Made by a program: the position numbers
Shown: positions 3,001 to 6,000 of the stretch, one piece after another
Layout of the letters: every line of letters starts with the position of its first letter
How positions within the stretch are numbered: the stretch's first letter is position 1
Source of the DNA: Escherichia coli O157:H7
Lineage (GTDB): Bacteria > Pseudomonadota > Gammaproteobacteria > Enterobacterales > Enterobacteriaceae
Reading direction: 5' to 3' (one strand)
NCBI RefSeq assembly: GCF_013167455.1
Contig: NZ_CP038328.1
DNA length: 64,000 nucleotides

Positions 3001-6000
3001 AGTTAGAACAACGGGAAATTATCGGCAGCGTCGGCGCGGGCGATGCATTTTGTGCCGGATTTTTATATGGCTGCCATGAACGCTGGACGCTTACCGAGAG
3101 CATCAAACTGGCACACGCCTGCGCGCGGGCAAGCCTGTTATGCGCCAATGCCATCGACGGGGCGAAAACGCTGGAAGAGCTGCAAACAGAAATGTCGGAT
3201 TAATGCACGTCGGCAGCGAAGACATACCCCAGACCGCGCAGAGTTTTAATCAACATCGGCTGATGCGGGTTGAGTTCGATTTTGCGTCGTAAGCGCATGA
3301 TTAATACGTCGATGGTGCGATCAAACACCTCCACGCTGTCGCTGTGGGTGAACGCCAGCAACTGCTCGCGGCTCAATACCCGACGCGCGTTTTGCGCCAG
3401 AGCCAGTAACAAGCCATATTCGCCCTGAGTTAACTCGACATGTTGCTGAAGCGGATTGTGCAACTGGCAGCGCATGGTATCGAGATACCAGCCATTGAAT
3501 GACAGCCCGGCGCTTTTCTCGTCATTAACCGCCAGCGCGCCAACCCGTCGCAACACCGCTTTCAGTCGTGCGACCACCACCCGCGGGGTGAACGGTTTGC
3601 AGATGTAATCATCCGCGCCCATTTCCAGCCCGACCACCACATCAGACTCACTGCCCATGCCGGTCAACATCACCACCGGCAATGTCGGACGCAGTTTCTG
3701 GATTTGCTGCAATACCCTCAGGCCGTTGGTATCGGGTAGCATCATATCCAGCACCACCAGCGCAATGTCAGGATCGCCCTCAATACGCAATATGGCCTCC
3801 TGTCCGGTATGGCAGACTGAAACCGTAAAGACATGTTCACTTAACACGTCCTGCAACAGTGCGCAGATAGCCGTGTCATCATCCACCACCAGCACGACGG
3901 GTTTCATGGTTACACTCCGCATCATTCATCTGATTAATCATTGTGCGTACTTCTTGTCGAAGTGAAAGCTGAAAGTAATATAAATAATAAAAATATAAGT
4001 CAGGTCACATTATTGATGATAGTAATAAATATGTCGTACTTTTCCCTCTTCAGCACAAATGCCTAATAAAATGGATCGTTCCGCTCACACTTCCACTTAT
4101 TAAAGTCGCAATTTCCCAATTATGATAACGCCAGCTTTAAATGACGTATTTTGCATGGATTACATATTTACGACATAAATGATAAATGGAGATTTATATG
4201 AATAACTCTCGGTTATTCCGTTTGAGCAGGATTGTTATTGCGTTAACTGCCGCCAGCGGCATGATGGTAAATACCGCTAACGCGAAAGAGGAAGCGAAAG
4301 CCGCCACTCAATATACCCAACAGGTTAATCAGAATTACGCCAAATCATTACCGTTTAGCGATCGTCAGGATTTTGACGATGCCCAGCGTGGATTTATCGC
4401 CCCGCTGCTGGATGAAGGTATTCTGCGTGATGCGAACGGTAAAGTTTACTACCGCGCAGACGATTACAAATTTGATATTAATGCCGCTGCGCCGGAAACC
4501 GTAAACCCCAGCCTGTGGCGTCAGTCGCAGATCAACGGCATTTCTGGCCTGTTCAAAGTCACCGATAAAATGTATCAGGTGCGCGGCCAGGATATCTCTA
4601 ACATTACGTTCGTTGAGGGGGAGAAAGGCATTATTGTCATCGACCCGCTGGTGACGCCGCCTGCCGCAAAAGCCGCACTTGACCTTTACTTCCAGCATCG
4701 TCCGCAAAAACCGATTGTTGCCGTTATCTACACTCACAGCCACACCGACCACTATGGTGGCGTGAAAGGCATTATCTCTGAAGCCGATGTTAAATCCGGC
4801 AAAGTTCAGGTGATTGCCCCTGCTGGCTTTATGGACGAAGCCATCAGCGAAAACGTGCTGGCGGGTAACATCATGAGCCGCCGTGCGCTCTACTCTTACG
4901 GTCTGTTACTGCCGCACAACGCGCAAGGCAACGTGGGTAATGGCCTTGGCGTGACGCTGGCAACGGGCGACCCGAGCATTATTGCACCGACTAAAACTAT
5001 CGTCAGAACTGGCGAGAAGATGATTATCGACGGCCTGGAGTTTGACTTCCTGATGACCCCAGGTAGCGAAGCGCCAGCCGAAATGCACTTCTATATTCCG
5101 GCCCTGAAAGCCCTGTGTACCGCCGAGAACGCCACGCATACCCTGCACAACTTCTACACTCTGCGCGGCGCGAAAACCCGCGATACCAGCAAGTGGACCG
5201 AGTACCTGAACGAAACGCTGGATATGTGGGGTAACGACGCGGAAGTACTGTTTATGCCGCACACATGGCCGGTCTGGGGCAATAAGCATATCAATGATTA
5301 TATTGGTAAATATCGCGATACTATCACGTTCATTCACGACCAGACCCTGCACCTGGCGAACCAGGGCTACACCATGAATGAAATCGGCGACATGATTAAG
5401 CTGCCGCCTGCACTTGCCAATAACTGGGCCAGCCGTGGCTATTACGGTTCTGTCAGCCACAACGCCCGCGCGGTGTATAACTTCTATCTTGGCTATTACG
5501 ACGGTAACCCGGCTAACCTGCATCCGTATGGTCAGGTAGAGATGGGCAAACGTTACGTGAAAGCGCTGGGCGGCTCTGCCCGTGTCATCAACCTGGCGCA
5601 AGAAGCGAATAAGCAAGGTGATTACCGCTGGTCGGCAGAACTACTGAAACAGGTGATTGCCGCCAACCCGGGTGACCAGGTGGCGAAGAATCTGCAAGCG
5701 AATAACTTTGAACAGCTGGGCTATCAGGCCGAGTCCGCCACATGGCGCGGTTTCTACCTGACCGGCGCGAAAGAGCTGCGCGAAGGGGTGCATAAGTTCA
5801 GCCACGGCACCACCGGTTCCCCGGACACCATTCGCGGAATGTCGGTCGAAATGCTGTTCGACTTTATGGCCGTTCGCCTCGATAGCGCGAAAGCTGCGGG
5901 TAAAAATATCAGCCTGAACTTCAATATGAGCAACGGCGATAACCTCAACCTGACGCTGAACGATAGCGTGCTTAACTACCGTAAAACACTGCAACCGCAA

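What the first reader, a model, noticed from the sequence alone, without database searches (positions are those of the whole stretch)
3200..3925. Orphan OmpR-family response regulator convergent with the sugar kinase
A complete receiver plus winged-helix regulator has no sensor kinase on either side: the kinase gene on one side is a PfkB sugar kinase, and the other side is an AT-rich intergenic region leading to yjcS. Its stop codon overlaps the sugar kinase stop on the opposite strand. It may regulate the adjacent sugar cluster or yjcS via an unlinked kinase or a small-molecule phosphodonor.
Basis: seen in the sequence. Interest (0 to 1): 0.45.

Follow-up and report, generated by a model that had tools for sequence, protein, structure and literature searches.

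The report
Known EHEC regulator LmvR/RbfR, not orphan
The gene is the already characterised E. coli O157:H7 response regulator LmvR (also called RbfR); its partner sensor kinase sits 6 kb away, just outside the window at the far end of the sugar operon it controls, so it is not an orphan.

Summary
Window 3200-3925(-) is an intact OmpR/PhoB-type response regulator; the likely start is 3907, giving 235 aa. Its stop overlaps the stop of a convergent PfkB kinase, and an AT-rich spacer (33% GC) leads to yjcS.

The 'orphan' reading fails. The window is E. coli O157:H7, and it begins inside genomic island OI-167. A hybrid histidine kinase lies 2.97 kb left of window base 1, divergent from the sugar operon. 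Kinase and regulator bracket six sugar genes. The whole 9.15-kb cassette is contiguous in exactly 410 of 5,426 complete E. coli genomes, and it recurs in seven other enterobacterial genera.

- kinase-to-regulator phosphotransfer;
- mannose/lyxose (or riboflavin) induction;
- direct activation of lmuXYZIAK from an ATATGA-N3-ATATGA operator;
- direct activation of ler/LEE.

I found that operator independently, inside a 39-bp block invariant across seven genera.

Verdict: already known, low interest. Still open are how LmvK senses its ligand and whether an Hpt protein is needed.

The parts
3200..3907 (-). [not shown]
   Evidence: The translation is identical to the EDL933 protein at record coordinates 5208439-5209146, the coordinates the mBio paper gives for LmvR. 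GGAG lies 7 nt before the ATG at 3907. The longest ORF extends to an in-frame ATG at 3925, but that start is not used in RefSeq or in the literature numbering (D54).
3563..3895 (-). Receiver (REC) domain of LmvR, with phospho-acceptor Asp54 at codon 3746-3748
   Evidence: Pfam PF00072, E 2e-25. D9/D10/D11, D54, T82 and K104 are present. The D54Q mutant is defective for growth on lyxose (PMC10128022).
3218..3445 (-). Winged-helix DNA-binding domain (Trans_reg_C) of LmvR
   Evidence: Pfam PF00486, E 4.4e-22.
3200..3203 (.). 4-nt convergent overlap of the lmuK and lmvR stop codons
   Evidence: TAA at 3201-3203 on the plus strand and TAA at 3200-3202 on the minus strand. The same 4-nt overlap is seen in Leclercia, Enterobacter and Lelliottia. 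No terminator-like site was found in 3100-4300.
2202..3203 (+). [not shown]
   Evidence: NCBIfam gives PfkB/ribokinase-type hits only. Fructokinase activity is published.
1345..2205 (+). [not shown]
   Evidence: NF005284, 579.7 bits against a cut-off of 406.
647..1330 (+). [not shown]
   Evidence: NF051472, 440 bits against a cut-off of 350. It matches the full length of PDB 3KMH/3MPB D-lyxose isomerase (E 4e-161).
1..592 (+). [not shown]
   Evidence: In L001 the full gene is at 14651-15592. It is RbsB-like at 149.6 bits, with weaker ChvE and TorT hits.
3908..4197 (-). lmvR upstream region, shared with divergent yjcS, 33% GC; only about 3908-3976 (or up to 4035) is island DNA
   Evidence: GC. 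Homology to island-less E. coli resumes at window 3977 or 4036. One sigma-70-like match lies at 4037-4009 on the minus strand, not above chance. Autoregulation is published from EMSA and lacZ fusions. I found no convincing copy of the operator here; the best matches are 9 of 12 in AT-rich DNA.

Best explanation

Shown in the literature:
- LmvK autophosphorylates, and H410 is required.
- Phosphate reaches Asp54 of LmvR.
- LmvR also binds the ler promoter and raises expression of the LEE type III secretion genes.
- It autoregulates.
- A second laboratory reports riboflavin as an activating signal.

Inferred here:
- The cassette is an old enterobacterial sugar regulon that EHEC co-opted for virulence control, rather than an EHEC invention.
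- The kinase is built like VirA (sensor, kinase, C-terminal receiver, no Hpt), so direct His-to-Asp transfer to LmvR is the simplest route.
For: Identity:
- The window is 100% identical to O157:H7 chromosomes.
- The protein equals EDL933_RS26880/WP_000805929.1 at the coordinates printed in the mBio paper.
- The residue numbers quoted in that paper (D54, H410, D692) fall on D, H and D in the sequences translated here.

Linked kinase:
- It has HAMP, HisKA, HATPase_c and REC domains.
- It is divergent from lmuX.
- The regulator gene, the kinase gene and the whole 9.15-kb island are each found in exactly 410 of 5,426 genomes. The island is one contiguous place in every carrier.

Conservation:
- The same gene order occurs in Citrobacter, Leclercia, Kosakonia, Enterobacter, Lelliottia, [Enterobacter] lignolyticus and Cedecea.
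- Island proteins are 75-97% identical to those of O157, the same range as the flanking core genes.

Operator:
- An exact ATATGACAAATATGA lies at L001 12054-12068; 0.03 matches are expected by chance.
- It sits in a 39-bp block that is invariant in seven genera and lies at a near-constant distance (within about 4 nt) from the lmuX start. The block also holds CTGACA-17-TGTGAT.
- This matches the published footprint and 5' RACE.

Published function: phosphotransfer, regulation of lmu, ler binding and virulence phenotypes.

VirA-like build: NF010411 (VirA-like kinase) aligns to residues 379-753, E 5e-64. No Hpt domain is detected. VirG is the regulator's second-best NCBIfam hit.
Against: - The two papers disagree on the signal (riboflavin versus mannose/lyxose) and on the route. 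The PNAS paper shows direct transfer in vitro; the mBio paper draws an unknown Hpt intermediate.
- Deleting lmvK did not change LEE transcripts in the mBio study, although it reduced adherence and colonisation.
- All matches to named equivalog families (OmpR, VirG, TorR, VirA-like, TorS) are below the curated cut-offs. The VirA comparison is therefore one of architecture, not orthology.
- I could not locate an operator copy upstream of lmvR itself.
Confidence: 0.94

Rival explanations
1. True orphan. The regulator has no dedicated kinase and is phosphorylated by an unlinked kinase or by acetyl phosphate.
For: No kinase flanks the regulator inside the window. In the mBio study, deleting lmvK left LEE transcript levels unchanged while deleting lmvR lowered them. 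Acetyl phosphate phosphorylates the protein well enough for EMSA.
Against: - A hybrid kinase lies 6.17 kb away in the same island.
- The pair is inherited as one cassette in 410 of 410 carrier genomes and in seven other genera.
- Kinase-to-regulator phosphotransfer has been shown in vitro.
- Both genes, and the H410 and D54 residues, are needed for growth on lyxose; both genes are needed for lmu induction.
Confidence: 0.03
2. Multi-step phosphorelay. LmvK passes phosphate from H410 to its own D692, then to an unidentified Hpt protein encoded elsewhere, and only then to LmvR D54. This is the model drawn in the mBio paper.
For: LmvK carries an intact C-terminal receiver, with D692 in the motif FISDLMLPG. 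From general knowledge, most hybrid kinases use an Hpt step. The mBio authors propose this model.
Against: - No Hpt domain is found in LmvK, in its orthologues, or in any gene of the cassette in eight genera.
- Direct transfer from the purified kinase to the regulator was observed.
- The kinase-plus-receiver region aligns end to end with VirA-like kinases. From my own knowledge, those phosphorylate VirG directly and use the receiver as a modulator.
Confidence: 0.2
3. Riboflavin, not a sugar, is the physiological ligand of the kinase, and the link to the sugar operon is incidental.
For: In the PNAS study, riboflavin increased RbfS autophosphorylation in vitro and induced rbfS, rbfR and LEE genes. 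These effects were lost in the mutants.
Against: - The kinase and regulator bracket a lyxose/mannose transport and isomerase operon in eight genera, with an invariant operator.
- Mannose and lyxose induce lmvR and lmu, and the system is needed for growth on lyxose.
- No riboflavin-related gene lies in the cassette.
Confidence: 0.2

Closest known systems
LmvK/LmvR = RbfS/RbfR of E. coli O157:H7 island OI-167 (Liu et al., PNAS 2022, PMC9860305; Yang et al., mBio 2023, PMC10128022)
   Same: It is the same gene. The protein is identical, the EDL933 coordinates are the same, the neighbours are the same, and the D54/H410/D692 numbering agrees.
   Different: Nothing differs at the sequence level.
TorS/TorR (with TorT) of E. 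coli
   Same: - The regulator is OmpR-family and TorR-like (163 bits).
- A periplasmic binding protein is encoded nearby.
   Different: - TorS carries a C-terminal Hpt domain; LmvK has none.
- Scores are far below the TorS and TorR equivalog cut-offs.
- The operator is ATATGA-N3-ATATGA, not the tor boxes.
- The sensor model has only moderate confidence (pLDDT 68).
VirA/VirG (with ChvE) of Agrobacterium
   Same: - The domain order is periplasmic sensor, linker, kinase, then C-terminal receiver, with no Hpt.
- The partner is an OmpR-family regulator.
- A sugar-binding protein of an ABC importer is associated with the system.
- NF010411 (VirA-like kinase) aligns to residues 379-753, E 5e-64. VirG is the second-best hit for the regulator.
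   Different: - Both scores are below the equivalog cut-offs (216.6 against 647; 179.8 against 344).
- No evidence yet shows that LmuZ talks to LmvK.
- The target genes are catabolic and LEE genes, not vir genes.
FusK/FusR of E. coli O157:H7 (island OI-20)
   Same: It is an island-encoded two-component system that reads a mucus-derived sugar and tunes both LEE expression and sugar utilisation (review PMC11644481).
   Different: It uses different protein families and a different sugar (fucose). FusR represses LEE whereas LmvR activates it. That FusK/FusR are adjacent genes rather than a pair split around the target operon is my own knowledge, not checked here.

Membership tests
OmpR/PhoB-family response regulators | N-terminal receiver domain with acidic pocket, phospho-acceptor Asp, conserved Thr/Ser and Lys | tested here: met
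   PF00072, E 2e-25. D9/D10/D11, D54, T82 and K104 are present.
OmpR/PhoB-family response regulators | C-terminal winged-helix Trans_reg_C DNA-binding domain | tested here: met
   PF00486, E 4.4e-22, model positions 2-77 of 77.
OmpR/PhoB-family response regulators | Binds tandem direct repeats near the -35 region of target promoters | tested here: met
   An exact ATATGA-CAA-ATATGA lies 8 bp upstream of a CTGACA-17-TGTGAT promoter in front of lmuX. The element is invariant in seven genera. A DNase I footprint is published.
[not shown]
   The translation is identical to EDL933. The coordinates 5208439-5209146 equal those in Table 1 of PMC10128022.
Orphan response regulator | No cognate histidine kinase gene linked to it or co-inherited with it | tested here: not met
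   A hybrid kinase lies 6.17 kb away in the same island. The island is contiguous in 410 of 410 carrier genomes. The linkage is kept in seven other genera.
TorS/TorR-type phosphorelay | Hybrid kinase with a C-terminal Hpt domain after the receiver | tested here: not met
   Pfam finds HAMP, HisKA, HATPase_c and REC only, and the protein ends at the receiver. The TorS models score 143.8 and 89.8 bits against cut-offs of 676.5 and 982.
TorS/TorR-type phosphorelay | Regulator reaches the TorR equivalog score | tested here: not met
   NF008034, 163.1 bits against a cut-off of 275.
VirA/VirG-like system | Kinase with C-terminal receiver and no Hpt, paired with an OmpR-family regulator | tested here: met
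   Domain order. NF010411 aligns to residues 379-753. Direct transfer in vitro is published.
VirA/VirG-like system | Orthology to VirA and VirG (equivalog cut-offs) | tested here: not met
   216.6 bits against 647 for VirA-like; 179.8 against 344 for VirG.
VirA/VirG-like system | Sugar sensing through a periplasmic binding protein that docks on the sensor domain | not testable with these tools
   LmuZ is RbsB-like with weak ChvE and TorT similarity, and the sensor fold is TorS-like. Deleting lmuKAIZYX did not reduce colonisation, whereas deleting lmvK did, which argues against an obligatory LmuZ role for that output.

The most novel reading that the evidence does not exclude
LmvK may not bind its ligand alone. 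Its TorS-like double four-helix-bundle sensor would read sugar-loaded LmuZ, the binding protein of the very ABC importer it controls, as TorT does with TorS, ChvE with VirA and XylFII with LytS. The kinase would then phosphorylate LmvR directly, with its own receiver acting only as a brake. On this reading the system is an ancestral enterobacterial lyxose/mannose regulon, and the riboflavin and LEE effects are secondary co-options in EHEC.
Probability: 0.2. Interest if true: 0.4.

Novelty: already known. Interest (0 to 1): 0.08.

Why it matters
For the scan this is a false alarm caused by the window edge. A response regulator that looks orphaned is one half of a split pair whose kinase lies just outside the sequence given.

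Biologically the system matters, but that is already published. It couples sensing of a gut sugar (or vitamin) to type III secretion in O157:H7 and affects colonisation.

This check adds four modest points.
- The cassette and its operator are conserved across at least eight enterobacterial genera, in the same chromosomal slot. It also occurs in E. coli from chicken, horse, goat and guinea fowl. That tempers the published picture of an EHEC-restricted acquisition.
- No Hpt travels with the cassette in any of these genera.
- The kinase is built like VirA, which favours direct phosphotransfer.
- The two published ler and lmuX footprints share one motif.

Tried and rejected
1. An ATGTGAC heptamer aligned upstream of lmvR in all eight genera. 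I rejected it as an operator. In E. coli it lies at window 4004-4010, inside DNA shared with island-less strains, it has no partner half-site, and the other conserved elements in that alignment look, by eye, like the divergent fdhF sigma-54 promoter and its upstream activator site.

2. I first read AATGTCAGAA in the invariant block as a regulator half-site resembling the ler footprint. It is in fact the -35 hexamer (CTGACA) of PlmuX. By my own estimate a 7-of-8 match of that kind is expected by chance about 0.3 times.

3. A search for the operator in the window with up to 2 mismatches gave 7 hits against 3.5 expected, and none near lmvR. The best matches in 3908-4197 are 9 of 12 in AT-rich DNA.

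4. Sequence and profile searches of the LmvK sensor region against PDB found nothing useful. Only the fold comparison did, and helical bundles match promiscuously.

5. The supplements of the PNAS paper (ChIP-seq and RNA-seq tables) are not held, so its 167 binding sites could not be checked for lmuX or yjcS.

6. The sigma-70 and terminator scans around the gene gave nothing above the shuffled expectation.

7. The ChIP-seq peak on lmvR in mBio Table S4 cannot be used as evidence of autoregulation. It covers only the coding sequence, with a very high pile-up, as expected from the plasmid-borne tagged copy.

Full report
**What is in the sequence.** The ORF at window 3200-3925 on the minus strand is real. 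Pfam finds a receiver domain at residues 11-121 (E 2e-25) and a Trans_reg_C winged helix at 161-236 (E 4.4e-22). The best NCBIfam matches are OmpR, VirG, PhoB, CreB and TorR, none reaching its equivalog cut-off. RefSeq and the literature start the gene at the ATG at 3907, giving 235 aa. GGAG lies 7 nt upstream of that ATG. In that numbering D9/D10/D11, D54, T82 and K104 are all present. The stop codon at 3200-3202 overlaps the TAA at 3201-3203 of a convergent PfkB kinase gene. The spacer towards yjcS is 33% GC.

**Where the window comes from, and what it cuts off.** The first 6.5 kb are 100% identical to many E. coli O157:H7 chromosomes. I fetched 15 kb on each side from strain FRIK944 (locus L001, where window base 1 is L001 15001; identity checked). 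This shows that the window begins inside the substrate-binding gene of a sugar ABC importer. The full layout is:
- yjdP;
- a 756-aa hybrid sensor histidine kinase on the minus strand;
- then, on the plus strand, ABC ATPase, permease, binding protein, D-lyxose/D-mannose isomerase, aldolase and PfkB kinase;
- the regulator on the minus strand;
- yjcS.

The kinase has HAMP, HisKA, HATPase_c and a C-terminal receiver, and no Hpt domain. Its start codon is 6.17 kb from the regulator's stop and 2.97 kb left of the window. The regulator is therefore not an orphan. It is one end of a pair that brackets a six-gene operon.

**Is the pairing real?**
- In 5,426 complete E. coli genomes the regulator gene occurs in 410 and the kinase gene in 410. 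The whole 9.15-kb island is one contiguous match in exactly 410.
- Regulator orthologues of 75-81% identity are common in other Enterobacteriaceae.
- In Citrobacter freundii, Leclercia, Kosakonia, Enterobacter and Lelliottia the same order recurs: hybrid kinase, divergent ABC-isomerase-aldolase-kinase operon, convergent regulator.
- [Enterobacter] lignolyticus has three extra genes between the operon and the kinase. Cedecea lacks the aldolase and the kinase.
- In every case the cassette sits in the same slot next to fdhF; where the locus reaches that far, yjdP and/or a PhnP-like Lactamase_B_2 gene lies on the other side, as in Citrobacter, Enterobacter and Lelliottia.
- Island proteins are 75-97% identical to those of O157, the same range as flanking fdhF, gltP, yjcO and yjdP. 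Island GC is 56% against 54-61% in the flanks.

- RbfS autophosphorylation, enhanced by riboflavin;
- transfer of phosphate to RbfR in vitro;
- loss of riboflavin-induced LEE expression in the mutants;
- a DNase I footprint of RbfR on the ler promoter.

Yang et al., mBio 2023 (PMC10128022) call the same genes LmvK/LmvR and the genes between them lmuKAIZYX. They show:
- a requirement for H410 and D54;
- induction by mannose and lyxose;
- direct activation of the operon from a footprint at -62 to -41 of PlmuX, containing ATATGA-N3-ATATGA;
- autoregulation of lmvR;
- binding to ler;
- reduced adherence and colonisation in the mutants.

A 2024 review treats the two names as one system (PMC11644481).

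The identification is secure. The EDL933 record at 5208439-5209146, the coordinates printed for LmvR, encodes WP_000805929.1, which is identical to the window protein. H410 and D692 fall on His and Asp in the kinase. The isomerase matches PDB 3KMH/3MPB (D-lyxose isomerase) over its full length, E 4e-161.

**An independent check of the mechanism.** Before reading the mBio paper I aligned the kinase-lmuX intergenic regions of seven genera. I found a 39-bp block with no substitution at all, at a near-constant distance (within about 4 nt) from the lmuX start, while the rest of the spacer varies and even accepts REP-like insertions. The published operator is inside that block: an exact ATATGACAAATATGA at L001 12054-12068, against a chance expectation of 0.03. 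It is followed after 7 nt (8 bp start to start) by CTGACA-17-TGTGAT, an AGGAG and the ATG. This geometry fits the published footprint.

The reverse complement of the PNAS ler footprint contains ATATAA-ATT-ATGTGA. That is 10 of 12 matches to the lmuX operator with the same 3-nt spacer. The footprints from the two laboratories therefore agree on the motif.

In the published RNA-seq table, lmuX rises 694-fold on LmvR overexpression and lmvK falls to 0.26. yjcS is not among the differentially expressed genes.

**How it most likely works.**

Shown in the literature:
- a sugar (or riboflavin) signal activates LmvK;
- phosphate reaches D54 of LmvR;
- LmvR binds the direct repeat just upstream of the -35 of PlmuX and activates the importer and isomerase genes;
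- it also binds ler.

Inferred here:
- No Hpt domain exists in LmvK, in its orthologues or in any cassette gene.
- The kinase-plus-receiver region aligns end to end with VirA-like kinases, E 5e-64 over residues 379-753.
- VirG is the regulator's second-best family hit.
- From my own knowledge, VirA phosphorylates VirG directly and uses its receiver as a modulator.
- Direct transfer, as seen in vitro, is therefore more economical than the unknown-Hpt relay drawn in the mBio model.

This fits the TorS similarity noted in the PNAS paper. It leaves open whether the ligand binds directly, as in McpS, or through the operon's own binding protein LmuZ, as in TorT/TorS. Deleting lmuKAIZYX did not affect mouse colonisation while deleting lmvK did, which argues against an obligatory LmuZ role for that output. 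Helical bundles also match many unrelated proteins, so the fold result is only a lead.

**Verdict.** The gene is a known, experimentally characterised regulator. The 'orphan' interpretation is an edge effect of the window. Control of yjcS is not supported. Novelty: already known. Interest: low. The remaining open points concern LmvK rather than the regulator: the Hpt question, the true ligand, and the disagreement over whether lmvK is needed for LEE transcription.

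Noticed in passing
L002-L011 (Citrobacter, Cedecea, Leclercia, Kosakonia, Enterobacter, [E.] lignolyticus, Lelliottia); L013 (E. coli goat strain): The OI-167 cassette is not confined to EHEC, contrary to the published picture.
- It occupies the same fdhF-side slot in at least seven other genera. Protein identities are 75-97%, like those of the flanking core genes, and the GC content is unremarkable.
- It also occurs in E. coli from chicken, horse, goat and guinea fowl, with alleles 92-99.7% identical to O157.
- The pathotype of those strains was not checked.
   Followed up: partly
L013 10857-12004; L004/L005 10739-12760: The aldolase and kinase genes are expendable parts of the cassette. 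In goat strain R32_14_1F, lmuA and lmuK are truncated and fused pseudogenes. In Cedecea they are replaced by an AraC-type regulator and an FAD-binding enzyme, while the kinase, the ABC importer, the isomerase and the regulator are kept. This agrees with the published finding that lmuK and lmuA are dispensable for growth on lyxose.
   Followed up: partly
EDL933 record NZ_CP008957.1 5208491-5209087 (= window about 3259-3855): The ChIP-seq 'peak' listed for lmvR in mBio Table S4 covers only the lmvR coding sequence, with a pile-up of 38,000-45,000. This is what reads from the Ptac-lmvR-2Flag plasmid would give, so it is not evidence of binding at the lmvR promoter. The paper's EMSA and lacZ data carry the autoregulation claim.
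   Followed up: partly
L001 12028-12140 (2.9 kb left of the window): The PlmuX operator-promoter block ends only 26 bp from the lmvK start codon in E. coli. lmvK falls about 4-fold when LmvR is overexpressed (Table S3), which suggests promoter occlusion of the divergent kinase gene. The PNAS paper instead reports a 3-fold rise of rbfS with riboflavin.
   Followed up: partly
window 3977-4036: The right edge of the island lies here. Homology to island-less E. coli resumes at window 3977 in some strains and at 4036 in most. Only about 70-130 bp upstream of the lmvR start codon therefore came with the island, and the rest of the AT-rich spacer is core yjcS upstream DNA.
   Followed up: partly
window 3200-3203; L006, L009, L011 near 10729-10735: The 4-nt tail-to-tail overlap of lmuK and lmvR is also kept in Leclercia, Enterobacter and Lelliottia. 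No terminator-like site separates the genes. Read-through from the strongly induced lmu operon would be antisense to lmvR.
   Followed up: no
ler promoter footprint quoted in PMC9860305 (not in the window): The reverse complement of the PNAS footprint holds ATATAA-ATT-ATGTGA. That is 10 of 12 matches to the lmuX operator with the same spacing. The mBio paper predicted a different ler site (ATTTTA-N3-ATTAGA).
   Followed up: partly
A1 columns about 176-320 (Enterobacter L009 16867-17099; Cedecea L004 17111-17438): GC-rich, REP-like palindromic insertions lie between the conserved operator block and the kinase start in Enterobacter and Cedecea. The distance from the block to lmuX is left unchanged.
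   Followed up: no
window 11841-11895, 32268-32408, 14364-14434, 24956-25027: Rfam matches elsewhere in the window: the fdhF selenocysteine insertion element, the sRNA sraL, and two naRNA4 (REP-derived) elements. All are ordinary for this part of the E. coli chromosome.
   Followed up: no
L001 8087-8522 (outside the window): phnO is annotated as frameshifted in both O157:H7 strains examined (FRIK944 and EDL933).
   Followed up: no
L002 19759-20294; L006, L008, L009 and L011 near 7111-7272: Small toxin genes sit beside the cassette in other genera. Citrobacter has a ParE/Phd-type pair next to yjdP. Leclercia, Kosakonia, Enterobacter and Lelliottia have a Hok/Gef-type gene next to fdhF.
   Followed up: no
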